From: Candidatus Forterrea multitransposorum CG_2015-17_Forterrea_25_41 | GTDB lineage: Archaea; Iainarchaeota; Iainarchaeia; Iainarchaeales; CSSED10-239 | DNA: 64,000 bases | Direction: 5' to 3' | Assembly: GCA_009392915.1 (NCBI GenBank) | Contig: CP045477.1 | Span: forward strand, 608,001 to 672,000 | Shown here: positions 4,630-24,847 of the stretch, piece after piece | How positions within the stretch are numbered: the first letter of the stretch is position 1 | Layout: each line of letters opens with the position of its first letter | The notes under the pieces: generated by a model | Told to the model about the DNA's origin: nothing | Databases searched by the model: none | Seen by the model: the letters and a program-made list of their open reading frames with translations, nothing else | Made by a program: the position numbers and the translations under genes

Positions 4630-5536
4630 TGTTCACCAAATCTAAAAGACCTTCTTTTTCATCAACAATAAAAGTTGTTTCTGCTTGAGAGACATAACTA
4701 TCTTTCCTATCAACTAAAACAGGAAAGCTTGCAATAATTTCATTTTTTAAAAGCTCTCTTAAAGCATATCTTCTTTGAAATGTAGAAAGATTTTTACCAA
4801 CCCAATATTCTGAAAAAGGAGTTCCATTATATTTATGGATCTCTTCAAGAATTAATTTAGCGTCTTTATTTCTAATACCTCTATCTTCTATGTGTTGAAA
4901 AATTAAAATTTTATCAGCTTCAGAAACAAAACCATCTCCAGTAGATGCAAAAGGTTCAATTGCAAATGGAAGATTAATTTCTGTTATTGGAATATTAATA
5001 TCATTTGAAGTGTTTGGTATTGATGGTGATGCATGAGGTTCATATCTTTCAATTGCATGTCCTGTAAGATTTATAATTGTTTTAAAACCTCTTGAAGTTA
5101 TTTCTTTATCAATTATTTTTCCAAGATCAGAGATTTTTGTAGTTTTATAATTATTTATTAAATGCTCTTTTGCTTTTTTAAGAGCAAAAAAAGAAGCATC
5201 TCTTAAAGATTCATGTTTTTTATTAAAAATTATTGTTTGTGCAGAATCTGCAATATATCCTTCAATTGAAACACCAACATCAACTTTTAAAACATCATCT
5301 TCTTTTAAGATTACTGGAGATTCTAAATCATAGGTGTTATGTGCAGCTTCATTATTAACAGACAGGTTTACTGGCCAAGCAGGAACAGCACCATTATCTA
5401 AAATAAACTTATCAATTTCAACACCTATTCTTGAAAGGTCAGAGCCAACTTTAATTAAGTTCTTTGCAAATTTTTGAGTTTTAAAGTTTAACTCTCCAGC
5501 TTTTTTTAAAAGTTTAAGATTTATATCTTGAGTCAT
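4613..5536 (-). CDS. map: Methionine aminopeptidase, archaeal type 2 (M24 family)
   Basis: Pita-bread metal-binding region motifs DVGVSIEGYIAD and TGHAIERYEPH. Length ~300 aa. Confidence 0.85.
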   Translation of the reverse strand: MTQDINLKLLKKAGELNFKTQKFAKNLIKVGSDLSRIGVEIDKFILDNGAVPAWPVNLSVNNEAAHNTYDLESPVILKEDDVLKVDVGVSIEGYIADSAQTIIFNKKHESLRDASFFALKKAKEHLINNYKTTKISDLGKIIDKEITSRGFKTIINLTGHAIERYEPHASPSIPNTSNDINIPITEINLPFAIEPFASTGDGFVSEADKILIFQHIEDRGIRNKDAKLILEEIHKYNGTPFSEYWVGKNLSTFQRRYALRELLKNEIIASFPVLVDRKDSYVSQAETTFIVDEKEGLLDLVNIDELY

Positions 5537-9450: not shown

Positions 9451-11877
9451 TTAGAAAAAATCATTTAAACCTTTCTGTTTTTTACCAGTTACAAGCTCAT
9501 CTTTTGAAATATTAAAAACTTCAAAAATAGAAACTACAGAAGGTAATAACTGATTTTCAAGATAATAATTAGTATCATAATCATAATCATTTTCTTCTTT
9601 GTAAAGTCTTGCTTTATCAGAAATATTTTTAGAAGGATAATTTGTAATTATGTATTCAACTAAAGCATTTTCTGAAATCTTCTCTCCATTATTTTTAGCA
9701 TAAGATAATGCAGACATTGCAGGATTTAAAGTTTTATAATTTTTAAGACTTTTATGAACAAAAGATTGTAAAACTAATTTTTCAATAGGTATTTTTTTAT
9801 CTTCAAGAGCTTTAATAATATTTCTTACATACTCTAAAGCTTTTTTAACATCTTTATCAATTAAAAGAATATTAAATAATTCTTTTTGAGTTTCTTTTAC
9901 AAGCAAACACCAATCTCTTCTTACAAACTCAAAACCTTTAATCTTTAGAGAACCATCTTTTGAAAGAAGAGCATATTTTTTCTTAGCTCCCTTAGTTTTA
10001 TCTCTTGAAAGAACAAATAATCCAGAAGTAAAAAGACCCTCAGTTTCAAGAGACATTGACTCTGGAAGAGATTTATTTATTTTTTCAAGATCAGAATATA
10101 GTTTTTTTTCATCATTGTATTTTATAAAACAAGAATCTGTATCAGAATATATAACAGTATAACCTAAATTTTCAAAATCACTTATAGTTTCTTGAATCTT
10201 TGTCCTTACTAAATGATACATTATTTCAAGACAAGGCCTACAATACCATCTTGCACCTGCAAAACCCATGTAACCATAAGTAGATGCAAGTAATATTTTT
10301 AGAGCATATTGTTTTGCAAAAAGAGATCTGTATTCTTGAGTATCTTTTTTATAATCTTTCATTTTATTTTTAATTGAAATTCTTAGAGATAAAAAACTTT
10401 CTAAAAGTTCAGGAACAAAACCTTTTTTGTCTTTTGAAATTTTATAACCTAAAACTTCAGAATAATCTTTTGATTCAATATTAATTGTTTCAGGACTTAT
10501 GTTATATGCCATAATTAAAGAAATATGATAACTTCTAAAATCAACAACAGCAATATTTTCATGAAGTCCAACTAAAGGATCTTTTACAAAAGCACCAGTA
10601 AAACTAAACTCATATCTATTTGAAACAACTTCTGGGGTAGGTTTATTTTCAAGAAGAATATCTTTTTTAAAATAATTATAAATAAATAATTTTTCAATCA
10701 TCTGTCCTGCAGAAGTTCTTAAAGTATCATAAATTGGAGACGCTATTAATTTTGAAATTTCATTAATTATTGAAAGATAATTTATAGAAAGATAATATGT
10801 TGCAAAAACATCATCTATATTATATTCTATAATTTTTGCATAATCTTGAGAAGAATAAAGATCAATAAAATCTTTTACTTTTAAAATGATTTTTTTATTA
10901 CCAGTTATTTTTTCATAAACAGAATTAAGATCTAATTTAGAATAATTAAAGACTTGAAGATAGTTTAAAAGTCTCATTAAAATATAAGTGTCAATGTGTA
11001 TAATGCTATCTATAGATACTGAAGTATTTCCTCTTTTATGAAAAGTTAATTTTTTATTAAACTTTATATCTTGAGATTTAATTACTTTATATCTTTTATA
11101 AATATAATCAAAATCAAAACGATCTCCATTATAAGTGAATATTAAATCAGGATCTTTTTCTTCTATTCTTTTAAAAAAAGAATCAATCATTAAAGATTCA
11201 TCTGTAAAGAAATTAACTATTGTATTTTTTTCTTTAAAAGACTTATAAAAATCATCTTCATTAAAAGAAATATCTTTAAAGAAGAAAATCTCCTTATTAT
11301 AATTTTCATCCATCATACAGATGGAAATTATTGGAGAAGTTTTTGGTTTTGGAAAAGAAAGATCCTTTAAAGGTAAAACTTCAATATCAAAAGTTAAATG
11401 TTTTAAAGACTCTGGCAGAACATCTTCTAAAACTTCAAAAGAAAGTATTTTTGAACCTGTATAACTAAATTTAATTTTTTTAAAATTATTTAAAGAATGA
11501 TCAATAAAAAACCTTTGAATAAAAGGAATATCATACTCTCTTAAAGAATAAGAAGAAGATAGATTAATTTCTTTATCAAGTAAATGTGCTCTTGAAGAAA
11601 TTAATGATTCAATATCTTTAAAGATTATTTTATAAGAAAAAGAAGCGCCTTTTTTATCAGTTTTAATAATTTCTAAAATATTTTTTAAAGACTTAGAAAG
11701 TAAAATAAGATCTTTTTCTAAAAGAAGTTTATCTGAAACTAAATAGAAATATGGAGAAAAATCATAACTATAGTTTTTCTTAACACCATCATTTCCTTTT
11801 ACACTTAAAAAAAGAGAACCATCATAAAAGGCATTTATAAAAATACCTTCTGATTTTAAAATTGTATTAGACATCAT
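9451..11877 (-). CDS. polB: Family B DNA polymerase
   Basis: Pol motif C YSDTDS (VIYSDTDSCFIK), motif B KILLASTYGYMGF, and N-terminal exonuclease region. 808 aa. Confidence 0.85.
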   Translation of the reverse strand: MMSNTILKSEGIFINAFYDGSLFLSVKGNDGVKKNYSYDFSPYFYLVSDKLLLEKDLILLSKSLKNILEIIKTDKKGASFSYKIIFKDIESLISSRAHLLDKEINLSSSYSLREYDIPFIQRFFIDHSLNNFKKIKFSYTGSKILSFEVLEDVLPESLKHLTFDIEVLPLKDLSFPKPKTSPIISICMMDENYNKEIFFFKDISFNEDDFYKSFKEKNTIVNFFTDESLMIDSFFKRIEEKDPDLIFTYNGDRFDFDYIYKRYKVIKSQDIKFNKKLTFHKRGNTSVSIDSIIHIDTYILMRLLNYLQVFNYSKLDLNSVYEKITGNKKIILKVKDFIDLYSSQDYAKIIEYNIDDVFATYYLSINYLSIINEISKLIASPIYDTLRTSAGQMIEKLFIYNYFKKDILLENKPTPEVVSNRYEFSFTGAFVKDPLVGLHENIAVVDFRSYHISLIMAYNISPETINIESKDYSEVLGYKISKDKKGFVPELLESFLSLRISIKNKMKDYKKDTQEYRSLFAKQYALKILLASTYGYMGFAGARWYCRPCLEIMYHLVRTKIQETISDFENLGYTVIYSDTDSCFIKYNDEKKLYSDLEKINKSLPESMSLETEGLFTSGLFVLSRDKTKGAKKKYALLSKDGSLKIKGFEFVRRDWCLLVKETQKELFNILLIDKDVKKALEYVRNIIKALEDKKIPIEKLVLQSFVHKSLKNYKTLNPAMSALSYAKNNGEKISENALVEYIITNYPSKNISDKARLYKEENDYDYDTNYYLENQLLPSVVSIFEVFNISKDELVTGKKQKGLNDFF

Positions 11878-14277: not shown

Positions 14278-15813
14278 TTATTCTTTAATTTCTATTTTTT
14301 CAAAAAGATGACCTTGTTTTTTTATGGTTTTTCCTTCCATAGTGTTAGTGAAAGCTAACCTCTTATGTCCAAGATTACTCTCATCCAAACCTAGTTGTGA
14401 AAAAATTTCTGTCCATTTTCTTGTAAGAATAGGAGATAACTCTAAAGCAAGTATCCTTATAGACTCTAAAAGAACATACATTACTTGATCAAACTTTTCA
14501 AGATCTTCTTTTAAAAGATCCCAAGGTTTGTTGTCTTGAACATATTTATTTAAAGCATATGACATTTGTAAAATTTCATTAATTGCTTTAGATAATTCAT
14601 ATTCTTTATAATGATTATGAATTATTTGTATCTTTGATTCAATCTCTTCTGCAAAAGAATCTTTAAAGAAATTAAATCCATTTTCTTTATTTCTTTTTTC
14701 AGCTAAAGTAACAACTCTTGATAAAAGATTACCAATACTTGAAACAAGATCACTATTTACTCTTTCAACAAAGCTTTTCTTTGAAAATTGACCCTCATCT
14801 CCAAAAGGCATTTCTTTTACTATATAATATCTATAAATATCTGAACCAAACTTTTCAATATACTCTTCAGGATAAACTACATTTCCAAAAGATTTAGACA
14901 TTTTCTTTCCTTCAGACATCCACCAGCCATGAGCAAATTCTTGTTTTGGAAGAGAAACATCTATTGATTTTAAAAAGATAGGCCAATAGATTGCATGAAA
15001 CCTAGAAATATCTCTACCCATTAATTGAAAGTCAGGAGGCCAATATTGTTTAAATTTTTCAGAATCACTTCCACCTAAAGCAGAATAATAATTAAACAAA
15101 GCATCAAGCCAAACATATATGGTATGTTCTTTATCAAAAGGAAGTTCTATACCCCAAGGCACTTTTTCTTTGTGTCTTGAAATACATAAGTCTTCAAGAC
15201 CGTTTTTAATAAAAGAAACAAATTCATTTTTATTTGATTCTGGAGAAAGAAACTTAGGATTATCTTCAATATATTTTAAAAGCCAGTCTTGATATTTTGA
15301 AAGTTTAAAAAAATATGCATCTTCGTGTTCTATTGTAACTTCATGACCAATAGGGCATTTATTTTCAGAAACATCTTTATCTGTAAAAAAAGATTCACAT
15401 CCTTTACAATAATATCCTTTATAGCTACCTTTATAGATATCTCCTTTTTCAAACATTTTTTGTGCAATTTCTTGCACTGTTTTTTTATGTTCTTTATCAG
15501 TTGTTCTGATAAAATAATCATAAGAGATATCTAAATCTTTCCATACTTTTTTTGTATAGTCAACTAAAGAATCAAGAAACTCTTTTGTATCTTTTTTTTC
15601 ATCTTCTGCAGCTTGTTGTACTTTTAAACCATGCTCATCAGTTCCTGTTAAATAAAAAACATCAGAACCTAAAAGACGATAGTATCTTGCAAAGATATCT
15701 GCAACCACAGTTGTGTAAGAGTGACCTAAATGGAACTTACCACTTACATAATAGATTGGTGTTGTTATATAATATTTTTTTGGAAAATCTAAATTATTCA
15801 TAATTTTAATCAC
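14278..15813 (-). CDS. metG: Methionyl-tRNA synthetase
   Basis: HIGH motif (GKFHLGHSYTT), KMSKS motif (KMSKSFGNV), and the Cys-rich CPIGH...CKGC knuckle. Confidence 0.9.
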   Translation of the reverse strand: MIKIMNNLDFPKKYYITTPIYYVSGKFHLGHSYTTVVADIFARYYRLLGSDVFYLTGTDEHGLKVQQAAEDEKKDTKEFLDSLVDYTKKVWKDLDISYDYFIRTTDKEHKKTVQEIAQKMFEKGDIYKGSYKGYYCKGCESFFTDKDVSENKCPIGHEVTIEHEDAYFFKLSKYQDWLLKYIEDNPKFLSPESNKNEFVSFIKNGLEDLCISRHKEKVPWGIELPFDKEHTIYVWLDALFNYYSALGGSDSEKFKQYWPPDFQLMGRDISRFHAIYWPIFLKSIDVSLPKQEFAHGWWMSEGKKMSKSFGNVVYPEEYIEKFGSDIYRYYIVKEMPFGDEGQFSKKSFVERVNSDLVSSIGNLLSRVVTLAEKRNKENGFNFFKDSFAEEIESKIQIIHNHYKEYELSKAINEILQMSYALNKYVQDNKPWDLLKEDLEKFDQVMYVLLESIRILALELSPILTRKWTEIFSQLGLDESNLGHKRLAFTNTMEGKTIKKQGHLFEKIEIKE

Positions 15814-15881
15814 ATCCTTTATTTTTTATAAAGGCAAAATATTTAATGTAAAAAGATAATATAAAATATTTGCCAAAGACT

Positions 15882-15912
15882 TTAAAAAACCTGCTTTACT
15901 TAAGAGCAGGTA
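15882..15912 (-). terminator. Hairpin plus T-run immediately 3' of the 16055-16738 gene
   Basis: The minus strand reads acctgct-cttaagtaa-agcaggt (7-bp perfect stem) followed by TTTTTT. Confidence 0.35.
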
Positions 15913-16054
15913 TCACATGGCCATAATAAAAATAGTTAGAGCTAGAGAAGAAATATTTAAAGAGCTTTTCTCTTTTAGATATATGTTTTTACCTCTAAGC
16001 ATATATATTTTATAGAAAAAAACATATTTAAAGAGATGTTAAAAAGTTTTATAA

Positions 16055-16738
16055 TTAAACATACCCTTCAATGTATGCTGTTTTTGTTTTTATAAAAAGC
16101 TTTTTGGATAATTCAGGAAAAATTAAACCTTTTTTTAATTTACACACAAATTCAAAAAGTCCAATAGCAGGATAAGGAAGCAAATTATAATGAATATTTT
16201 CAAAAATAAATCCATTTAGAAAAACAGATAGCTCAGAAAGGTAATATTCAGATAATTTTTCTAACTCATTTAAAGTAAAAGATTTATCTGAAAAAAGATT
16301 TTTAATATAATTTAAAACATAATTTCTAAAAAGAATATTAGTATTAAATTCATCAAAAATTAAACACCTGTTTTTTTTATAATCAAAAGAATTAATTACA
16401 TCTTTCCAACGAACAATAATAATTTTTTTTTGAATATCTTGCAGATATTTTGCAATGATTTTTTCACACAATCTTTTTACTTGAGATCCTTTCTTAAAAG
16501 CAGTTTTTTTAGCAGAATCTTTTGAAAGATTAAAAAATATTTCATCATTAATAGCTTGGATTTCATCTGCAATTAAAATAGCTACTTTTTCGTTTGTATT
16601 TTCTAAAGCCCAATCTAAATATCTTTTAATATGTTCTTCAGAAAAATAATTATTTCTTACACTTATTCCAATATAAATATTAAATTTTTTATTTTTAACT
16701 TCAGTTTCATTTGTTAAAAAATAATTTTTAATAATCAT
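16055..16738 (-). CDS. Cyclodipeptide synthase (CDPS)-like protein (class-I aaRS-like fold); tentative
   Basis: IYIGISVRNNYFS resembles the CDPS catalytic-Ser pocket GIS-x-G/R-N-x-YFS. The Y-x3-E (YYLSE) with a Tyr 20 residues after the Glu matches the recalled spacing of AlbC Y178/E182/Y202. 227 aa. Confidence 0.45.
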   Translation of the reverse strand: MIIKNYFLTNETEVKNKKFNIYIGISVRNNYFSEEHIKRYLDWALENTNEKVAILIADEIQAINDEIFFNLSKDSAKKTAFKKGSQVKRLCEKIIAKYLQDIQKKIIIVRWKDVINSFDYKKNRCLIFDEFNTNILFRNYVLNYIKNLFSDKSFTLNELEKLSEYYLSELSVFLNGFIFENIHYNLLPYPAIGLFEFVCKLKKGLIFPELSKKLFIKTKTAYIEGYV

Positions 16739-16747
16739 TATATATAC

Positions 16748-18397
16748 CTAAGAAAAATCAATCTCAAAACCACAAACAGGCATAGTATAGTTGTGCTTTT
16801 CTAAAACTTCTGGAGAAAATTCACCTATATGTCCAACTTCGTCATCATTAATTATAACTGCAGCACTTCTTCCTTTAATATAAAAAGGATAATCTTTTTC
16901 TTTAAGTCTTAAAGTTTTACCTAAAACATTTGTTAAAGATAAAAGATATGAAGAGATTTCAGTAAAACTAATCTTAGAGTTTGCAATAACTGCTGCTAAG
17001 TGAAGTTTATTTTCAGATAAAGTATCAAGCTCTTTATTTTCTAAAACAACATAATCACAAGCAAATAATTTTTGTGGAAAAGACTTATGTTGATTATTTG
17101 TTAAAGCTTTAAATAATTTAGGAATAATCCAATTACCAACAATATTAATTGAACTTTCAGCACTAAAACCTAAAGGAATATATTTTTCTCCCTTTATATT
17201 AAAATTTTCAAAAGAATCTTTTTTTGAAGAAAGAATAAAAGGTAATATTTCAATAAAACCCATACCCACCATAGAAGTTATTATTTGTTCTTGGAAAATA
17301 GACTCCTTTAATCTTTCTCCATTAAAGTGAACATCTGAGTATGTAGGAGTAATATTGTTTATAGCAAACCCTCTTAAAACATCATCTACAACATCATTTT
17401 CATGAAGGATGTCTGTTCTAAAGATAGGAATGGTGACTTCTATTAAGTCATCTGATTGTTTATTACAAATAAACATCATTTTCTCTAAATTAGCTATAGC
17501 TTCTTTTAAAGTTAACTTAATTCCTAATAATTGATTTATATATTTTAAAGAAACAACCATTTTTCTTAAAGATACATCTGGAGAAATAATTTTTTTATCA
17601 AAATATTCAATTTCTAAAGAATAAACTTCTCCTCCAAAATCTGCAAAAATAGAAGTTAAAATATTCATTGTATTTTTAAGTTTAGTTAAGTTTTGACCAG
17701 TACATTCTAAAAAAACTTCTTTTGTGCTTTCTAAGACTCTACCTGTTTCTTGAGAGTTAATGATTGGAGGCATTGAAAGTATTTTTTCATTAGAATCTTT
17801 AAAGAAAAGATATTTTTGTTTATCTTTAACTAAATAAGAATATTCTTGACCAGTCGGATGATTTTTAATAATATCAAAACCAGTCATTTCTTTTGTTTCT
17901 CCTAAAGGTATAAATTTAATATTTTCTGGAAAATCTGCCATAAAAGTTATTGGAAAAGTTATTTTATCTAAAGGATAAACACCAATAGCAACAGATTTTC
18001 TTTTTCTACCATAAGTTAAGTGTAATTTTTCTTGAACATTTATTATTTCTTTTATTTTTTCAGAATCTAAATTTAAATTTTTAACAATTGCACACATGGT
18101 ATGATTACCATAATTAGTTGCAGATCTATCAACAATTACTTTTTGTTTAGAATCTTTTAAACTAAAAGGAGTGTATTTTTTTAAAGATAAATAACTTTCT
18201 AAAGCTCTTTTAAAACCTACAAAAGAAAGAAGATCTATTCTTTCAGCAGTAACTTCTATTTTTAAAAGATCTGTTTCTTTATCATAAGAATCTATCTCTA
18301 AACCAAAATCAAAAAGAATTTCTTCTAATTTTTCTAAAGATAAATCTTTTCCAATTTCTTTTTTTAATCTATTAAATTCAAAATCTATTACTGCCAT
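16748..18397 (-). CDS. pheT: Phenylalanyl-tRNA synthetase beta subunit (archaeal type)
   Basis: ~550 aa with B3/4 and B5 domains and a class II-like C-terminal core. Immediately downstream of pheS. Confidence 0.8.
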   Translation of the reverse strand: MAVIDFEFNRLKKEIGKDLSLEKLEEILFDFGLEIDSYDKETDLLKIEVTAERIDLLSFVGFKRALESYLSLKKYTPFSLKDSKQKVIVDRSATNYGNHTMCAIVKNLNLDSEKIKEIINVQEKLHLTYGRKRKSVAIGVYPLDKITFPITFMADFPENIKFIPLGETKEMTGFDIIKNHPTGQEYSYLVKDKQKYLFFKDSNEKILSMPPIINSQETGRVLESTKEVFLECTGQNLTKLKNTMNILTSIFADFGGEVYSLEIEYFDKKIISPDVSLRKMVVSLKYINQLLGIKLTLKEAIANLEKMMFICNKQSDDLIEVTIPIFRTDILHENDVVDDVLRGFAINNITPTYSDVHFNGERLKESIFQEQIITSMVGMGFIEILPFILSSKKDSFENFNIKGEKYIPLGFSAESSINIVGNWIIPKLFKALTNNQHKSFPQKLFACDYVVLENKELDTLSENKLHLAAVIANSKISFTEISSYLLSLTNVLGKTLRLKEKDYPFYIKGRSAAVIINDDEVGHIGEFSPEVLEKHNYTMPVCGFEIDFS

Positions 18398-18403
18398 GTT
18401 AAT

Positions 18404-19897
18404 TCACTCAAATTTTCTTTTAGGGATGATATAGTTTCTTAAGAAATCAATATCACAATCATCACCAAATACTTCCTTAATATTTCCTTTTTCTAAAAGA
18501 AGCATACCTATTCTTTCAATACCAATTCCCCAAGCAATTACATTATTTTTAATACCATAAGGCTCTAAAGTTTCTTGTCTGAAAATACCAGAATTCATAA
18601 TTTCTTTATAACTTTTTGATTTTTCAAAATATGCAAAAACTTCAACACTTGGTTCTGTGTAAGGATTATAAGTTGGTTTAATTTTTATTTTTGTAATACC
18701 AAGTTTTGCTAAGAATTCTTTAATAAAACCAATTAAATCTGAAAGACCAATATTCTTTCCAATAACAAAACCTTCTGCTTGATAGAATTCAGCTAAATGT
18801 GTTGCATCTAAAGATTCATTTCTAAAAACTTTACCTATACAAAAATATTTTGAATTTTTCTTTTCTTCTTTAGATAAATTGTAAAAAGTTCTAAAAGTTA
18901 CAGAAGTTGTGTGTGTTCTTAAAATTAAATCTTTTGCCATATCTTCATTCCAAACATATTGATGACCAGTAGAACCTGTTTCACCACCATTTTCATGAAC
19001 ATCTTTTATTTTTTCTAAAAAAGATTTATCTTTTACAAGACTACCTTTTAAAGGTAGATAAAAAGTATCTTGAAGCTCTCTCATAGGATGATCTTGAGAA
19101 ATAAACATTGAATCCATTGGCCAAAAAGAAACATCCACATAAGGACCTGACATTTCTTTAAAACCCATTTCTAAATAAAGATCTCTAATATATCCCATTA
19201 TAAGTCTCATAGGATGTATTCTTCCAATTTCTGCAGGTTTTGGTAGTTTAGAGACTTGGTATTCTTTAAATTTAAGATCTTTATAATCTCTTGATTTTAA
19301 AATTTCAGAAGTTAGATTAATTATTGTATCTTTATCTACTGCATAATCTTTTTCTTTTAAGAAAGAATATTCTTTCTCTAAAGTTATTTTTTTAAAAATA
19401 AATTTTCTTTGTAGAAAATCATTTATTTTTTCTTGAGAAGTCTCTTTTCCAGAAACAATTAAATTAAGATCATTTTTTTTAGAATCTATTTTTTCTTTAT
19501 AGTCTTTTGTTGGAACTATTTTTCCTTGTTCAATGGATATTAGATTAGTTCTTTTTGAAACTCCAAAAGCTAAAGAAACTTCTTCTTTTTCAAGGTTTGG
19601 AATATCAAGAGATTTTAAAGAAGATACTAAAACTTCTTTACCCTTTATAAAATCACAAAATATTTCTTCAATAAAACCATTTTTTAGAGAAAGAGAACCT
19701 ATTTCTGTTAAACTATAAGTTATAATTTCATCTACTTTTTCAGAAATTACTTCTTCAGATTTTAAAAACTCTAAAGCTCTTCTTAAAGAATCAACTTCTA
19801 TATCTAAAGCTGAATTAATTTCTTCAAAGCTTAAAGTTTTTTTTTCTTTTAAAAGATCATATAAAGAATAATCAATCTCATTTATTTTTATAACCAT
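18404..19897 (-). CDS. pheS: Phenylalanyl-tRNA synthetase alpha subunit
   Basis: Class II motif 2 FRNESLDATHLAEFYQAEG and motif 3 GIGIERIGM. Confidence 0.9.
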   Translation of the reverse strand: MVIKINEIDYSLYDLLKEKKTLSFEEINSALDIEVDSLRRALEFLKSEEVISEKVDEIITYSLTEIGSLSLKNGFIEEIFCDFIKGKEVLVSSLKSLDIPNLEKEEVSLAFGVSKRTNLISIEQGKIVPTKDYKEKIDSKKNDLNLIVSGKETSQEKINDFLQRKFIFKKITLEKEYSFLKEKDYAVDKDTIINLTSEILKSRDYKDLKFKEYQVSKLPKPAEIGRIHPMRLIMGYIRDLYLEMGFKEMSGPYVDVSFWPMDSMFISQDHPMRELQDTFYLPLKGSLVKDKSFLEKIKDVHENGGETGSTGHQYVWNEDMAKDLILRTHTTSVTFRTFYNLSKEEKKNSKYFCIGKVFRNESLDATHLAEFYQAEGFVIGKNIGLSDLIGFIKEFLAKLGITKIKIKPTYNPYTEPSVEVFAYFEKSKSYKEIMNSGIFRQETLEPYGIKNNVIAWGIGIERIGMLLLEKGNIKEVFGDDCDIDFLRNYIIPKRKFE

Positions 19898-20725: not shown

Positions 20726-20859
20726 TTTAATAATCTACTCTTTATTTTTTAAATTGGTTTAATGTTTATTTACTAATATTAAACTAATCTATATAATATA
20801 TTGTAGAAATAAGTTTATATACCTTTTTAATATTGTAAATAAAAGTAAAAGAGTAATAT

Positions 20860-21891
20860 TTAAAAGATCCTATCAAAACCATTTATTTCAAAAACATAAA
20901 TTAATAAATTATAAGAATTAGCATAATTTGCATACCCTAAAAAAGAAAAAAGAGAAGAATTAAAATTAATTAAAGAAATTTTTTTAGAATTTAATAAAAG
21001 ATTATTAAGTTTTTGTCTTTTTATAAATCTCTTAACATTTGATTTTCTTAGTTTTACTTTAGTTGGGTAAATTTTATAACCTAAAAAATCAACCCCTTTA
21101 TCTACTAAATTAATATAAGTTTTGTTTTTAGGAATTGTAAGTAACAAATTATTTTTTAAAAATAATTTAATTTTTCTTCTGAAAATACTTAACTCTTGTT
21201 TAGAATTTGAAAATATTAAAAAATCATCAACATACCTATAATAGTGTTTGATTTTTAAAGTATGCTTAATATATTGATCAAGCTCATTTAAATAGATATT
21301 TGCAAAAAGTTGAGAAGTTAAATTACCAATAGGAATTCCTTTTTTATTATTTAAAAACGAAAAAGAATAACTATCTATTATTTTATATATTATAACCAAT
21401 AATTGCTTGTCTTTAATTCTTTTTTTTATAATATATTTTAAAACCTCTTTTTCAATAGAAGGAAAATATTTTTTAACGTCTTGTTTTAAGTAATATTTAG
21501 GAGATTTTTTAGATTGAACTAATTTTTTTATTTCTAAAAAACCTTTAAAAGTACCTTTTCCTTTTCTACATGCAAAAGAATTATTTATAAAAGTTTTATC
21601 AAAGATAGGCTCAATAATATTTATAATTGCATGTTGAACAACGACATCTCTAAAACAAGGAGCACTAATAATTCTTTCTTTAGGTTCATATACCTTAAAA
21701 TTTCTATATGGAGAAAAATTAAAATTACCAGAAATTAATTCTTCTTGTATTAAAAATAATTCTTTTTCAAGATTTTGAGTAAATTTTAAAATATATTTCT
21801 TATTAGGATTTGATTTTCTGGCACGTTTATATGCATTATAAATGTTTTTAAAAGAAGTAAATTCTTCCCAAAGATTATTATATGATTTCAT
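20860..21891 (-). CDS. DGR-type reverse transcriptase
   Basis: RT motifs including catalytic YVDD (YRYVDDFLIFS) and the DGR-specific motif-4 signature IGNLTSQ. Lies directly downstream of the template repeat. Confidence 0.88.
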   Translation of the reverse strand: MKSYNNLWEEFTSFKNIYNAYKRARKSNPNKKYILKFTQNLEKELFLIQEELISGNFNFSPYRNFKVYEPKERIISAPCFRDVVVQHAIINIIEPIFDKTFINNSFACRKGKGTFKGFLEIKKLVQSKKSPKYYLKQDVKKYFPSIEKEVLKYIIKKRIKDKQLLVIIYKIIDSYSFSFLNNKKGIPIGNLTSQLFANIYLNELDQYIKHTLKIKHYYRYVDDFLIFSNSKQELSIFRRKIKLFLKNNLLLTIPKNKTYINLVDKGVDFLGYKIYPTKVKLRKSNVKRFIKRQKLNNLLLNSKKISLINFNSSLFSFLGYANYANSYNLLIYVFEINGFDRIF

Positions 21892-22124
21892 TTTTTATAG
21901 AACCTATTAAAAATTAAAAGTTATTACAGATTTCTTTAATCTAATAAAATTAAAATACTAAATGTAATAACTTATTTTTATATTCGATTTTTAAAACATA
22001 AAAACAAAAATGTTTTTATGGCATACCTTATATGCAATCAGGAAACATTTTACAGATGTAGTTTTTAGAATATACACTTTGCATATTTTAAAAAATAAAA
22101 ATAAATATACAAACTCTGATAAAA

Positions 22125-22146
22125 CCTTATTTCTTTAAAAATAAGG
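22125..22146 (-). other. Stem-loop abutting the 3' end of the DGR template repeat
   Basis: ccttattt-ctttaaa-aataagg gives a perfect 8-bp inverted repeat, 2 nt from the TR boundary. Confidence 0.4.
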
Positions 22147-22148
22147 AG

Positions 22149-22269
22149 AAACTACTGAACACAGCGCAGGCCGATGTTGTTGTTCCGGTTCCCAGGAGTA
22201 TTGTTCAAGTTCAAGTTCAAGACCCCTGCATTAGTTCCATTGTTCCAGTTACCACCGCGCAGGAAAGAA
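22149..22269 (-). repeat. DGR template repeat (TR)
   Basis: 121-nt GC-rich repeat, 101/121 identical to the 3' end of the target gene. On the gene strand every mismatch is an A in this copy, including repeated AAC codons. Not inside an ORF. Confidence 0.88.
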
Positions 22270-22345
22270 ACGACTCCTTTTTCTGTAAAAGCCCTATTCT
22301 TTTTATAACTAAAAAGAACAAAATAAATAATTATTAGAAAAGTTT

Positions 22346-22675
22346 TTATAAATTATGCTTTAAAAGCCCCCCAATTAATTTACCTAAATCATTTAGTTTT
22401 TTAGAAATAACTTCATATTTTTTAAAAGAAATAATTTTTAGATCAAAAGAGAGCCTCACATATATTTTTAAAAGTTCTAAATCAGTATCAATTTGATTTA
22501 AAGTATTAATTTTATGTTTTGAAAAAAGAATAGTATTAGATAATAAAGAAATAGTAGTTTTTTTCAAATCTTCTCCTAAAATATATTTGTCAGATTTAGG
22601 AAATTTTTTAATTTCAGGATAAATATAAAGTAAAAAGTTATATGTTTCTTTATATAACTTTAAATCAAATAACAT
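22346..22675 (-). CDS. avd: Avd (DGR accessory variability determinant); four-helix-bundle family
   Basis: 109 aa basic protein. KLYKETYNFLLYIYPEIKKFPKSDKYILGEDL...LNDLGKLIGGLLKH matches the Avd/23S-IVS four-helix-bundle pattern. Located between target gene and TR. Confidence 0.7.
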   Translation of the reverse strand: MLFDLKLYKETYNFLLYIYPEIKKFPKSDKYILGEDLKKTTISLLSNTILFSKHKINTLNQIDTDLELLKIYVRLSFDLKIISFKKYEVISKKLNDLGKLIGGLLKHNL

Positions 22676-22685
22676 ATTATAAACA

Positions 22686-23093
22686 CTATTTTTTATTTTC
22701 TTCTATTTTTTTTATAAGTCCATTAAAATATTTAATTTTTTCTTCAAATTGATTATAAAAAAAAAGAATTTTATCTTTAGATAAATCTTTATTAATTTCA
22801 CTTAATATAAGTAAATTTGATTGAGTTGTAGAAACACAATCTCTTGAATAAGAATAAAGTAATGATTTTTCATTAGAATGATATTTATTATATCCTTTTG
22901 ATAAAAAAGAAAGAATATTTATTAAATTTGAAATAGTTTCTTGAAAAATAAAATTATCATTTATAGATGATTTATTTTCTTCTAAAAATTTATAAGTATT
23001 AATAACTAAAGGAAAGAGTTCTTTGTAAACCCCAAAATTTAAAATTCCTCTTTCTATATTTACTAAACTCATAACAACCATATTTTTGTCCAA
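22686..23093 (-). CDS. Hypothetical protein inside the DGR cassette (possible second accessory factor)
   Basis: 135 aa ORF, co-oriented, between the target gene and avd. No recognisable motif. Confidence 0.35.
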   Translation of the reverse strand: MDKNMVVMSLVNIERGILNFGVYKELFPLVINTYKFLEENKSSINDNFIFQETISNLINILSFLSKGYNKYHSNEKSLLYSYSRDCVSTTQSNLLILSEINKDLSKDKILFFYNQFEEKIKYFNGLIKKIEENKK

Positions 23094-23267
23094 TATATAT
23101 TGTGATTTATTAAAACCACTTTAATTGAGTAGCAAATTTTTTTGTAAAAAACAAAAAAATTTGCAAAAGCAAAAAACATTTGCTTTCTCTTTTGCCAATT
23201 TATTTTTTTCTTTTTTCACTTTTATTTTTTATTTTTTTGCACAAACTCAATCTTGAAGCATTGTTTT

Positions 23268-23309
23268 TCGCGACGTTACCCGTCTTACCGTCTTGCCGTC
23301 TCACCCGTC
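23268..23309 (-). repeat. GC-rich tandem direct repeats 3' of the VR
   Basis: Four imperfect tandem copies of (a/g)(c)ccgtct(t/c) (gene strand GACGGNNA) in an otherwise AT-rich intergenic region, ~34 nt downstream of the target-gene stop. Confidence 0.4.
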
Positions 23310-23342
23310 AAAATACAATATTCTCGAAATACATTTTTTCAA

Positions 23343-23463
23343 AAACTACTGAACACAGCGCAGGCCGACGACGCTGCCCCGGCCCCCAGGAGTAAAGTTC
23401 AAGCGCAAGCCCAAGACCCCCGCATTAGTTCCACTGCCCCAGCCACCACCGCGCAGGAAAGAA
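23343..23463 (-). repeat. DGR variable repeat (VR) at the 3' end of the target gene
   Basis: 121-nt copy of the TR with 20 substitutions, all at TR-adenine positions (A to G/C/T on the gene strand). Spans the final 39 codons plus stop of ORF 23346-24707. Confidence 0.88.
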
Positions 23464-24707
23464 TATACAGTAGTAGAAGTATCTCCAAAATCACTATAAG
23501 TGTAAATTCTACCAACACCATTATCTGCTGCATTATAATTATTACTTGTAAGTAAAAATAAATCTTTATACTCTAAAGTGGTATTACCTAAATTATCAGA
23601 AGAAATGTATTGGGCTTCTCCACCACCTTTTGAATAATCAAAATAATCAAAACCAGTAGTAAAGTTACTATCATCAGCATTGTTAAAACCATCAGGTTGG
23701 TCTTTTCTTTGGATAGTGTCACTTGTCCATTGCCAAACATTACCAGCTAAGTCCCAAATTACTTCACCGTTTGTTAAAGTTAAGGTTCTTTTTGTAGTGC
23801 CAGAAAGTTCATCAAAACCTTCCATAGCACCAGAAGAAGAAGAATTACCACGTGGAAGATAACCTTCTCCAACAACTCCAGTTGACCAGTTTGAAGGTAC
23901 TTGTTCAATGTTTCTTGCAATGGTCATCCATTCGTCATTTGTTATTAAATGTCCACCTACTGCAGCACAAGCTGCAATAGCTTCGGTTTGGGAAATTCTT
24001 GCTATTGGAGAACCTTCTGGAGTTGATACTAAAGTGCCTGGAGTAGGACATAATTCATAACTATAAGTATTATAGGTTAAAGAACCAGTATTACAATCTG
24101 GATAATCAGCTACAAGGTTTCCTTTACCATCTCCATTTGCATCCATTTTCATTTCATATTTTGAAACACAAAAACCACCACGCTCATTCATGGTTCCATA
24201 TAAATGGTTTCCTGGAACTGGAACATAGCCTTCTGGACAAGAAAGAGGAGTTTTTACGGTTTGAAAAAGATCAGGTTTAGTTATCATTTGAGAATTGTCT
24301 AAATATAAAACTAAATCTAAAGAGTCACCTAAAATACCATGATCAAGAGTAGCAGATTGATTGGAAAGAATAGTGACAGGAGGTTCTAAAGGATTAATGT
24401 TTGAATTGCCTAATAAACTATAACCGGTAATGGTAATAGAAGTATAAGGAGAACCATAAGGGGGTTTATACTCTAGAAGAGAACGACCATTGATAGAAGA
24501 TTTAATATTTAAATAAAAGCCAGTTTCTGATTCTGTATAAACTTCAATACTTGAAGCTTTAGAAAAAGAATCATTGGTAAAGCCTTTACCCCAAGAAAGA
24601 ATAATACCAATAATAGCAACAGAGACAACTATTAAAAGAATGGTGGCTATCAAAGGAGAAATACCTTTTTGAAATCTAAAACGCTGAAAAATATATTTGA
24701 AAAACAT
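23346..24707 (-). CDS. DGR target protein: pilin-like surface protein with C-terminal FGE-sulfatase/C-type-lectin-fold variable domain
   Basis: N-terminus FQKG|ISPLIATILLIVVSVAIIG is an archaeal class III (prepilin) signal. C-terminal domain has the FGE hallmark AGNVWQWTSD and ends ...RGGGWGSGTNAGVLGLRLNFTPGGRGSVVGLRCVQ, which is encoded by the VR. Confidence 0.85.
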   Translation of the reverse strand: MFFKYIFQRFRFQKGISPLIATILLIVVSVAIIGIILSWGKGFTNDSFSKASSIEVYTESETGFYLNIKSSINGRSLLEYKPPYGSPYTSITITGYSLLGNSNINPLEPPVTILSNQSATLDHGILGDSLDLVLYLDNSQMITKPDLFQTVKTPLSCPEGYVPVPGNHLYGTMNERGGFCVSKYEMKMDANGDGKGNLVADYPDCNTGSLTYNTYSYELCPTPGTLVSTPEGSPIARISQTEAIAACAAVGGHLITNDEWMTIARNIEQVPSNWSTGVVGEGYLPRGNSSSSGAMEGFDELSGTTKRTLTLTNGEVIWDLAGNVWQWTSDTIQRKDQPDGFNNADDSNFTTGFDYFDYSKGGGEAQYISSDNLGNTTLEYKDLFLLTSNNYNAADNGVGRIYTYSDFGDTSTTVYSFLRGGGWGSGTNAGVLGLRLNFTPGGRGSVVGLRCVQ

Positions 24708-24847
24708 AAGGGATCAAAATTAAAGTTAATTAAAATATAATATTATAAAAGAAGAATATATTTATAAACATAATGATTAAAGAGAAAAAAGGAAAAAAGT
24801 TAAAAAAACAATACTCTTTAAATAAAAATTGGTTTATATAATTATAT

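What the first reader, a model, noticed from the sequence alone, without database searches (positions are those of the whole stretch)
16055..16738. Putative cyclodipeptide synthase (tRNA-dependent) encoded next to MetRS and PheRS
This 227-aa protein has IYIGISVRNNYFS followed by …LDWA…VAILIADEIQ, then YYLSE, then a Tyr 20 residues after the Glu. As I recall it, that mirrors the CDPS catalytic constellation of AlbC (GIS-x-G-N-S-YFS Ser pocket; Y178-x3-E182; Y202). CDPSs hijack aminoacyl-tRNAs to make diketopiperazines and are rare in archaea. A CDPS wedged between metG and pheT/pheS in a reduced DPANN-like genome would be unusual. It hints at a Phe/Met-containing cyclodipeptide or a moonlighting aa-tRNA-dependent activity. 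No tailoring genes are adjacent.
Basis: partly seen in the sequence, partly recalled or inferred. Interest (0 to 1): 0.7.

Follow-up and report, generated by a model that had tools for sequence, protein, structure and literature searches.

The report
Cyclodipeptide synthase inserted beside PheRS genes
The gene really does encode a tRNA-dependent cyclodipeptide synthase in a tiny DPANN archaeon, but it is a known enzyme type already labelled as such in public databases, and it sits among tRNA-synthetase genes because a single gene was inserted into an older synthetase cluster.

Summary
Window 16055..16738 (-) is a 227-aa ORF carrying every motif quoted. Its best solved relative is ParcuCDPS (PDB 7QB8 series, E 8.5e-27). 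A pLDDT-93.8 model matches only CDPS structures. S26/Y165/E169/Y189 align to AlbC S37/Y178/E182/Y202, and Y189-P190 places it in the XYP subfamily.

It is not new as an annotation: the identical protein is NCBI NCP71869.1, "tRNA-dependent cyclodipeptide synthase [archaeon]". Its clade is shared by CPR bacteria and DPANN archaea.

The aaRS neighbourhood is not a conserved CDPS feature: none of the other 35 CDPS loci fetched has it. Four sister genomes keep pheS-pheT-metG collinear but lack the CDPS. The gene is therefore a ~0.7-kb single-ORF insertion, starting 9 nt after the pheT stop codon and lying upstream of a conserved hairpin plus T-run. It is probably co-transcribed with pheST.

Pocket P1 (YGLAWVFL) most resembles two enzymes that use Phe (one with Phe trapped in P1), so a Phe-containing (less likely Leu-containing) cyclodipeptide is the best guess. 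P2 is unpredictable. No tailoring genes are present. This is an ordinary new member of a known family with a mildly interesting context.

The parts
16055..16738 (-). CDPS gene (227 aa), XYP subfamily, ParcuCDPS-like clade. Catalytic residues S26, D58, Y165, E169, Y189-P190. P1 pocket Y22/G24/L55/A57/W111/V172/F173/L187. P2 pocket Y144/N147/L148/D151/A191/(I192)/G193.
16034..16747 (-). Approximate extent of the lineage-specific insertion: 9 nt leader, the CDPS ORF and about 21 nt of trailer. It is absent from four sister genomes. Boundaries are good to roughly +/-10 nt on the downstream side.
16748..18397 (-). pheT (PheRS beta, 549 aa). Its stop codon TAG lies 9 nt before the CDPS ATG. Inferred to be the upstream member of the same transcript.
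18404..19897 (-). pheS (PheRS alpha, 497 aa, archaeal type), 6 nt before pheT.
15814..16033 (-). Ancestral pheT-metG spacer, now downstream of the CDPS. It is homologous to the spacers of sister loci L037 and L038.
15884..15911 (-). Conserved 7-bp hairpin (A/CCUGCU...AGCAGG/U) followed by a U6 run. Inferred shared terminator of the pheS-pheT-CDPS unit. The folding energy is not exceptional (z -1.26); the argument rests on sequence conservation.
14278..15813 (-). metG (MetRS; GTG start at 15813, or ATG at 15801 as called by JGI). Neighbour by ancestral synteny, probably a separate transcript.

Best explanation
The ORF encodes an apparently catalytically intact cyclodipeptide synthase of the XYP subfamily, in the ParcuCDPS-like clade that is shared by CPR bacteria and DPANN archaea. 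The mechanism is inferred from the family. A first aminoacyl-tRNA delivers its aminoacyl group to Ser26, which is positioned by Asp58, with the side chain held in the deep pocket P1. A second aminoacyl-tRNA bound with its side chain in P2 gives a dipeptidyl-enzyme. Tyr165, Glu169 and Tyr189 then assist cyclisation to a 2,5-diketopiperazine. P1 here is fully hydrophobic (YGLAWVFL), so the first substrate is most likely Phe-tRNA, with Leu, Tyr or Met as alternatives. The second amino acid cannot be predicted. The gene arrived as a ~0.7-kb single-ORF insertion into an ancestral pheS-pheT | metG housekeeping cluster. It starts 9 nt after the pheT stop codon and lies upstream of the cluster's conserved hairpin plus T-run, so it is probably transcribed with pheST. 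The adjacency to aaRS genes therefore reflects the insertion site, not a conserved biosynthetic cluster. Shown: family membership, fold, residue conservation, the insertion, and the absence of aaRS linkage elsewhere. Inferred: activity, substrate, co-transcription. My confidence is about 0.95 for 'it is a CDPS', about 0.85 for 'a single-gene insertion into ancestral synteny', about 0.6 for co-transcription with pheST, and about 0.4 for Phe in P1.
For: Family: Pfam PF16715 42.2 bits against cutoff 27. TIGR04539 62.2 bits against cutoff 45. phmmer against the PDB gives ParcuCDPS at 8.5e-27 over residues 11-215, and all 14 hits at E<=10 are CDPSs. The AF2 model has pLDDT 93.8 and pTM 0.90. The top 50 Foldseek PDB hits are all CDPSs, the best being 7QB8/7QAX with TM 0.83/0.85.

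Residues: S26, Y165, E169, Y189 and P190 are invariant in 16 clade sequences, and D58 is conserved in 15 of 16. hhalign to the validated AlbC sequence (94% probability) maps them to S37/Y178/E182/Y202. ParcuCDPS mutagenesis shows that S26, D58 and E171 are essential (PMC7613923).

Pocket: my mapping reproduces the published motifs for ParcuCDPS and KKQ51042. Among 26 characterised XYP enzymes, P1 is closest to ParaCDPS FGLAWVIC, where Phe was trapped on the enzyme in P1, and to CDPS 91 FGLAWSLL, which makes cFF/cFY/cFL. The His-selecting residues of ParcuCDPS (Y55/E174/Y189) are L55/V172/L187 here. That resembles the engineered Y55V/E174L/Y189L-type variants that switched to Leu/Phe.

Insertion: sister loci L037-L040 (PheS 63-81% identical) are collinear from PCNA to aIF5A but lack the CDPS, and tblastn finds no remnant. 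The spacer downstream of the CDPS aligns to their pheT-metG spacer, including the hairpin and T-run.

No aaRS linkage elsewhere: of the 36 CDPS loci, only L001, which is the same genome as the window, carries MetRS or PheRS.

Native composition: GC3 is 8.8%, like the neighbouring genes.
Against: No activity data exist for this protein or for any archaeal CDPS that I could find in the searchable literature. Pocket-motif prediction is acknowledged to be weak for XYP enzymes (73% predictable; PMC5816076), and 5 of 8 P1 identities is suggestive only. cLI/cLL- and cAG-type motifs score next. P2 (YNLDAIG) matches nothing characterised. Co-transcription is inferred from spacing and a conserved hairpin whose folding energy is not exceptional (z -1.26). 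Archaeal promoters were not modelled, and a TATA-like run (GTATATATA) lies right at the junction. [quoted passage not shown]
Confidence: 0.8

Rival explanations
1. Dedicated functional coupling. The CDPS was selected at this position because it draws on the Phe-tRNA and Met-tRNA made by the flanking synthetases, and it makes cyclo(Phe-Met) or a similar product.
For: The CDPS ATG is 9 nt from the pheT stop codon, on the same strand, and shares the downstream hairpin and T-run. P1 resembles Phe-loading pockets. CDPS 91, which has a similar P1, makes some cFM (3%).
Against: pheS-pheT-metG adjacency predates the CDPS and persists without it in four sister genomes. None of the other 35 CDPS loci has MetRS or PheRS nearby, including the 54-57% identical closest relatives. 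metG is separated by a 241-nt spacer carrying terminator-like and TATA-like elements. aa-tRNAs are diffusible, so proximity is not needed. P2 gives no hint of Met.
Confidence: 0.1
2. The protein has the CDPS fold but is used for something other than releasing a free diketopiperazine, for example aminoacyl or dipeptidyl transfer to another acceptor, or tRNA-pool sensing.
For: There are no tailoring, export or regulator genes around it. It occurs in a symbiont-sized genome where secondary metabolism is unexpected. ParcuCDPS-type enzymes diverge structurally from classical CDPSs.
Against: The closest characterised relative, ParcuCDPS, is a bona fide cyclodipeptide producer. All cyclisation residues (Y165, E169, Y189) are invariant across the clade. 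Stand-alone CDPS genes are also seen in the relatives.
Confidence: 0.05
3. An inactive or decaying horizontally acquired gene with no role in the cell.
For: It is present in this species only among five closely related genomes. Several XYP CDPSs tested in E. coli were inactive.
Against: The ORF is intact and full length. All catalytic residues are kept. The identical protein is recovered on contigs indexed in 95 blocks of the collection. Codon composition is fully ameliorated to the host (GC3 8.8%). The model is confidently folded.
Confidence: 0.05

Closest known systems
ParcuCDPS (CDPS 90, ETB63777.1, Parcubacteria bacterium RAAC4_OD1_1; PDB 7QB8 and mutants 7QAQ-7QAY)
   Same: Closest solved and characterised relative (E 8.5e-27, about 32% identity, TM 0.83/0.85). 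Same XYP subfamily and near-identical length. Shares the Ser26/Asp58 dyad, invariant G84 and W111, and the Y-x3-E and Y-P motifs.
   Different: ParcuCDPS selects His in P1 through Y55/E174/Y189 and makes cHP/cHE. The window protein has L55/V172/L187 there, a hydrophobic pocket, and D151 where ParcuCDPS has K151 in P2. The host is a DPANN archaeon rather than a CPR bacterium.
ParaCDPS (CDPS 17, Parabacteroides sp. 20_3, cyclo(His-Phe)) and CDPS 91 (Methylovulum miyakonense, cFF/cFY/cFL)
   Same: These have the most similar P1 pocket motifs among 26 characterised XYP enzymes: FGLAWVIC and FGLAWSLL against YGLAWVFL, 5 of 8 identical each. ParaCDPS was shown to load Phe in P1.
   Different: The P2 motifs are unrelated (0-1 of 7 identical). 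I did not measure overall sequence relatedness to these two enzymes. Neither appeared among the GTDB loci or in the solved-structure search, where neither may have a deposited structure.
AlbC (Streptomyces noursei, cyclo(Phe-Leu); PDB 3OQV/4Q24)
   Same: Same fold and the same catalytic constellation S37/Y178/E182/Y202, all aligned. Hydrophobic P1.
   Different: AlbC belongs to the NYH subfamily (H203), whereas the window protein has P190 at that position. Only about 17% identity. AlbC sits in a cluster with the AlbA/AlbB cyclodipeptide oxidase (abstract), and the window gene has no tailoring partner.
AQS34941.1, 'uncultured archaeon' XYP CDPS listed by Gondry et al. 2018
   Same: An uncharacterised archaeal metagenomic XYP CDPS, grouped by those authors with CPR sequences and ParcuCDPS. 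Its P1 motif is FGLVWILH.
   Different: It is a different sequence (237 aa, different pocket residues), and no genomic context is reported.

Membership tests
Cyclodipeptide synthase (Pfam PF16715 / NCBIfam TIGR04539) | Profile-HMM score above the curated threshold | tested here: met
   PF16715 42.2 bits (GA 27), E 1e-10. TIGR04539 62.2 bits (cutoff 45), E 4.9e-17.
Cyclodipeptide synthase | Single-domain Rossmann-type fold shared with solved CDPSs | tested here: met
   AF2 model pLDDT 93.8, pTM 0.90. The 50 best Foldseek PDB matches are all CDPSs, with TM up to 0.85.
Cyclodipeptide synthase | Catalytic Ser (AlbC S37) that carries the aminoacyl and dipeptidyl intermediates | tested here: met
   S26 aligns to AlbC S37 and ParcuCDPS S26, and is invariant in 16 of 16 clade sequences.
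Cyclodipeptide synthase | Y178, E182 and Y202 (AlbC numbering) conserved | tested here: met
   Y165, E169 and Y189 align to them and are invariant in the clade.
Cyclodipeptide synthase | Lacks the class-I aaRS ATP-binding signatures (HIGH, KMSKS); uses pre-activated aa-tRNA | tested here: met
   Direct reading of the 227-aa sequence finds no HIGH or KMSKS motif. That this distinguishes CDPSs from aaRSs is background knowledge (Sauguet et al. 2011, cited).
Cyclodipeptide synthase | aa-tRNA-dependent formation of a cyclodipeptide | not testable with these tools
   Requires expression and LC-MS. No experimental data for this protein were found.
XYP subfamily of CDPSs | Y202-P203 (AlbC numbering), with position 40 variable | tested here: met
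   Y189-P190, invariant in the 16-sequence clade alignment and present in nearly all of the wider set. Position 40 is N29. The definition comes from PMC7613923.
NYH subfamily of CDPSs (AlbC, Rv2275, YvmC) | N40, Y202, H203 | tested here: not met
   N29 and Y189 are present, but position 203 is Pro190, not His. NYH structures are only weaker hits.
ParcuCDPS-like clade | Asp58 within reach of the catalytic Ser (Ser/Asp dyad) and Gly84 in the alpha3/alpha4 helix | tested here: met
   D58 is conserved in 15 of 16 sequences and G84 is invariant. The geometry in my model was not inspected because no coordinates were accessible.
His-using CDPS (ParcuCDPS specificity) | P1 residues Y55, E174, Y189 that select histidine | tested here: not met
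   The equivalents are L55, V172 and L187, so cHP/cHE is not predicted.
CDPS biosynthetic gene cluster (CDPS plus tailoring enzymes) | Adjacent oxidase, P450, methyltransferase, prenyltransferase or similar | tested here: not met
   The neighbours are aaRS genes, aIF5A and ORFs without Pfam domains. No homologue of the SET, methyltransferase or GNAT partners seen in relatives occurs anywhere in the 64-kb window.

The most novel reading that the evidence does not exclude
A CPR/DPANN-associated CDPS clade moves between the two domains of ultra-small episymbionts. In this archaeon it has been hard-wired into the PheRS operon, so that production of a Phe-containing diketopiperazine tracks Phe-tRNA charging capacity. 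The product would act as a signal or antagonist in the symbiont-host interaction. That would be the first functional secondary-metabolite pathway tied to translation-gene expression in a DPANN archaeon.
Probability: 0.15. Interest if true: 0.6.

Novelty: new member of a known kind. Interest (0 to 1): 0.3.

Why it matters
I found no experimentally characterised archaeal CDPS in the searchable literature. This one is small, intact and close enough to the crystallised ParcuCDPS to be a tractable test case. Its P1 pocket looks like a natural counterpart of the engineered ParcuCDPS variants that switched from His to Leu/Phe, so its product would test the pocket-based specificity rules where they are weakest, in the XYP subfamily. 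The finding also gives a clean example of a single-gene acquisition dropped into a housekeeping operon in a reduced genome. It shows that one CDPS clade is shared by CPR bacteria and DPANN archaea, with archaeal members polyphyletic. None of this overturns anything known. The enzyme class, its mechanism and its occasional occurrence in archaeal metagenomes are already documented, and the protein is already correctly named at NCBI.

Tried and rejected
1. aaRS linkage as a general property of the clade. tblastn of the window's MetRS, PheS and PheT against all 36 CDPS loci hit only the window's own genome. The single exception was one weak class-I aaRS-like match 5 kb from the CDPS in L016. Rejected.

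2. Recurrent partner genes. Clustering 260 neighbour ORFs gave a SET-domain gene in 5 CPR loci and a GNAT in 3 loci, but nothing shared with the window. tblastn of those partners against the window found nothing with E below 0.3.

3. Recent foreign origin by composition. GC, GC3 and codon usage of the CDPS are within the range of its neighbours, so this gave no signal.

4. Weak alternative family hits: AAA_22 (16 bits, cutoff 27) and Mplas_Cys_pep (20.2 bits, cutoff 45). Both are below threshold and were rejected.

5. The hhalign mapping of AlbC positions 65 and 67 gave I54 and I56. This is one residue off from the curated alignment of Gondry et al., which places ParcuCDPS Y55 and A57 there. 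I used the curated register, which reproduces two published motifs.

6. An Rfam search of the CDPS-metG spacer returned only a spurious sub-threshold mir-3688 match (22.8 bits against gathering score 84).

8. A taxonomy look-up of 'Candidatus ainarchaeum' found no entry, so the lineage is given only as DPANN, nearest to sequences carrying that NCBI label.

9. Literature searches for CDPS in DPANN or archaea found no dedicated study.

Full report
**1. Observation**

The ORF exists exactly as described: window 16055..16738, minus strand, ATG start, 227 aa (DNA). It contains IYIGISVRNNYFS, LDWA, VAILIADEIQ and YYLSE, and Tyr189 lies 20 residues after Glu169. On the same strand the order is:
- pheS (18404..19897), then a 6-nt gap;
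- pheT (16748..18397), then a 9-nt gap;
- the ORF, then a 241-nt gap;
- metG (14278..15813).

The Pfam content of the neighbours was confirmed on the identical public contig.

**2. What it is**

Three independent sequence tests give the same answer:
- Pfam CDPS PF16715: 42.2 bits against a gathering score of 27.
- NCBIfam TIGR04539 (tRNA-dependent cyclodipeptide synthase): 62.2 bits against a cutoff of 45.
- phmmer against all PDB chains: only CDPSs are returned. The best is the 7QA*/7QB8 series at E 8.5e-27 over residues 11-215.

[quoted passage not shown] It is an XYP-subfamily enzyme that makes cyclo(His-Pro) and cyclo(His-Glu) (PMC5816076; PMC7613923).

An AlphaFold2 model built on 15 homologues is confident (pLDDT 93.8, pTM 0.90). 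Its 50 best Foldseek matches in the PDB are all CDPSs, with ParcuCDPS first at TM 0.83/0.85.

I then profile-aligned it to the clade (hhalign probability 94%). The mapping is S26=S37, N29=N40, Y165=Y178, E169=E182 and Y189=Y202. Position 203 is Pro190. That is the Y-P signature of the XYP subfamily as defined, so the protein is not an NYH enzyme like AlbC.

In a 16-sequence clade alignment, S26, Y165, E169, Y189 and P190 are invariant. Asp58, which forms an essential Ser/Asp dyad in ParcuCDPS, is present in 15 of 16 sequences.

**3. Already annotated**

The identical protein is in NCBI as NCP71869.1, NCP79044.1, NCP97573.1 and NCQ06811.1, named "tRNA-dependent cyclodipeptide synthase [archaeon]". 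It occurs on many contigs up to 839 kb.

**4. Organism**

The window has 24.9% GC. It encodes archaeal-type PheRS, aIF5A, PCNA and family-B DNA polymerase. The PheS protein's nearest named relatives are DPANN: "Candidatus ainarchaeum sp." at 58-63% identity, and Nanoarchaeia and Woesearchaeota at about 41%.

**5. Distribution of the clade**

- A word-indexed search found only 16 relatives at 36-57% identity.
- An exhaustive profile search of 1.84 billion cluster representatives found 1171 CDPS-family hits, of which 148 score E<=1e-30 against this clade's profile.
- A scan of GTDB species genomes returned 22 loci. They are mostly CPR/Patescibacteria (Saccharibacteria, Paceibacterota, Gracilibacteria, Moranbacteria, Parcubacteria). 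There are five DPANN (three Woesearchaeota, one Nanoarchaeota, one Pacearchaeota), plus a few Gammaproteobacteria, one Victivallales and one unclassified bacterium.

In 100 bootstrap neighbour-joining trees, the seven archaeal sequences never formed a single group. One DPANN pair grouped with gammaproteobacterial sequences in 94 of 100 trees (topology). This points to repeated inter-domain transfer, with two caveats: the method is distance-based and the taxon labels come from MAGs.

Gondry et al. 2018 had already listed one "uncultured archaeon" XYP CDPS (AQS34941.1) next to CPR sequences and ParcuCDPS. I found no paper dealing with CDPSs in DPANN specifically.

**6. The aaRS neighbourhood**

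First, none of the other 35 CDPS loci I fetched has MetRS or PheRS nearby. That includes the closest relatives at 54-57% identity.

Second, the PheS search revealed sister genomes. Four loci with PheS 81, 77, 76 and 63% identical (L038, L037, L039, L040) share one gene order. One search shows that L037 is collinear with the window from PCNA to aIF5A: PCNA-Lon-LactB-LactB3-orf263-pheS-pheT-metG-aIF5A. In all four loci pheT is followed directly by metG across a spacer of 45 to about 250 nt, and tblastn finds no CDPS remnant.

The 220 nt downstream of the window's CDPS align to the pheT-metG spacers of L037 and L038. Homology starts about 21-27 nt after the CDPS stop codon. It includes a strongly conserved block, TTATGGCCATGTGATACCTGCTCTT...AGCAGGTTTTTT, which forms a 7-bp hairpin followed by a T-run.

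So pheS-pheT-metG is ancestral. The CDPS is a ~0.7-kb insertion (about 16034-16747) that is essentially just the ORF. It was placed between the pheT stop codon and the ancestral 3' region of the pheST unit. Its composition (GC 20.6%, GC3 8.8%) matches its neighbours, so the acquisition is not very recent, or it came from an equally AT-rich donor.

From the 9-nt spacing and the shared downstream hairpin and T-run, I infer co-transcription with pheST. I infer a separate transcript for metG. The spacer also carries T5 and T7 runs and TATA-like elements. These transcription points are inference only.

**7. Likely substrates**

The published pocket positions (AlbC numbering) are P1 = 33, 35, 65, 67, 119, 185, 186, 200 and P2 = 152, 155, 156, 159, 204, 206, 207. 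Using the curated register of Gondry et al.'s Supplemental Data Set 4, my alignment reproduces two published motifs: ParcuCDPS GAYAWELY and KKQ51042 FGLPWMLL, the latter being my locus L023.

- The window protein's P1 is Y22-G24-L55-A57-W111-V172-F173-L187, or YGLAWVFL.
- Its P2 is Y144-N147-L148-D151-A191-(I192)-G193, or YNLDAIG.

The three residues that select His in ParcuCDPS (Y55, E174, Y189) are L55, V172 and L187 here. In ParcuCDPS, replacing them with hydrophobic residues switched the enzyme to Leu/Phe.

I compared against 26 characterised XYP enzymes. The two best P1 matches (5 of 8 identical, BLOSUM 31 and 30 against a self-score of 46) are ParaCDPS (FGLAWVIC) and CDPS 91 (FGLAWSLL, which makes cFF/cFY/cFL). 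For ParaCDPS, a trapped acyl-enzyme showed Phe in P1. The cLI/cLL- and cAG-type motifs come next at 23. P2 resembles nothing characterised (at most 2 of 7 identical) and lacks the F156/R159 pair typical of the Glu-binding cXE groups.

Best guess: a cyclo(Phe-X) product, with Leu, Tyr or Met possible in P1 and X unknown. The authors themselves warn that motif prediction is weakest for XYP enzymes.

**8. Tailoring**

Nothing next to the gene looks like a tailoring enzyme.

In relatives, a ~150-aa SET-domain gene overlaps the CDPS stop codon in five CPR loci (Pfam). CDPS-SET and CDPS-class-I-methyltransferase fusion proteins also exist. No homologue of these partners is present in the 64-kb window.

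**9. Verdict**

This is a real, apparently catalytically intact XYP-subfamily CDPS. It is a new, uncharacterised member of a known family that public annotation already names correctly.

The position among aaRS genes comes from a single-gene insertion into ancestral synteny. It is not a conserved biosynthetic arrangement. The insertion does probably place the gene under pheST transcription, and the P1 pocket independently leans towards Phe.

Interest is modest at 0.3. The most novel reading not excluded is a Phe-tRNA-coupled diketopiperazine signal in a DPANN symbiont, carried by a clade that moves between CPR and DPANN. I give it about 0.15 probability.

Noticed in passing
window 20860-24707 (minus strand): RT 20860..21891, TR 22149..22269, bAvd 22346..22675, 135-aa ORF 22686..23093, target ORF 23346..24707 with VR 23343..23463: A complete diversity-generating retroelement. 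The 121-nt template and variable repeats are 83% identical, and all 20 mismatches are at template adenines (16 A>G, 3 A>T, 1 A>C). The whole cassette (about 20726-24847) is absent from sister genome L037, where LactB3 and orf263 are adjacent. This stretch therefore carries two lineage-specific insertions, the DGR and the CDPS, flanking orf263-pheS-pheT.
   Followed up: yes
L013 1898-2350, L014 3128-3580, L017 6644-7108, L022 6639-7031, L024 3194-3685; proteins P0020, P0021, P0100 (CDPS-SET) and P0108, P0112, P0120 (CDPS-methyltransferase): In CPR relatives a ~150-aa SET-domain gene overlaps the 3' end of the CDPS gene, and fused CDPS-SET and CDPS-class-I-methyltransferase proteins exist. A SET-domain partner for a CDPS was not mentioned in the CDPS papers I read. 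It may be an undescribed tailoring enzyme, or a protein-directed partner. It is absent from the window.
   Followed up: partly
window 15884-15930 (minus strand); L037 about 10290-10335; L038 about 5225-5270: A strongly conserved non-coding block, TTATGG(C/T)CATGTGAT(A/G)CCTGCTCTT...AGCAGGT(T/G)TTTT, lies in the pheT-metG spacer of three related DPANN genomes. It is far better conserved than the surrounding AT-rich spacer. It has no Rfam match, and the hairpin energy is unexceptional (z -1.26). It is absent from the shorter spacers of L039 and L040. It could be a terminator, a metG leader or a small RNA.
   Followed up: partly
loci L007, L030, L034, L035 and L027-L029, L036 (CDPS genes at the positions listed): Archaeal members of this CDPS clade are polyphyletic: never monophyletic in 100 bootstraps. 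The DPANN pair L007+L030 groups with two gammaproteobacterial MAG sequences in 94 of 100 trees. L007 and L028 also share flanking T2SSF-type membrane-protein genes.
   Followed up: partly
L011 3333-4019 (protein P0005); L036 5950-6642: Two relatives depart at otherwise conserved catalytic positions. P0005 has Tyr instead of Asp58 (AYEIQ). The Pacearchaeota sequence L036 shows G-Q in place of Y189-P190 in my alignment, and its tblastn match stops at residue 176. These may be inactive variants, sequencing errors or local misalignment.
   Followed up: no
proteins P0116 (716 aa), P0118 (624 aa), P0162 (754 aa), P0028 (321 aa): Some clade members carry the CDPS domain at the C-terminus or in the middle of much longer proteins. 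The remaining 200-500 residues have no Pfam match at E<=0.001.
   Followed up: no
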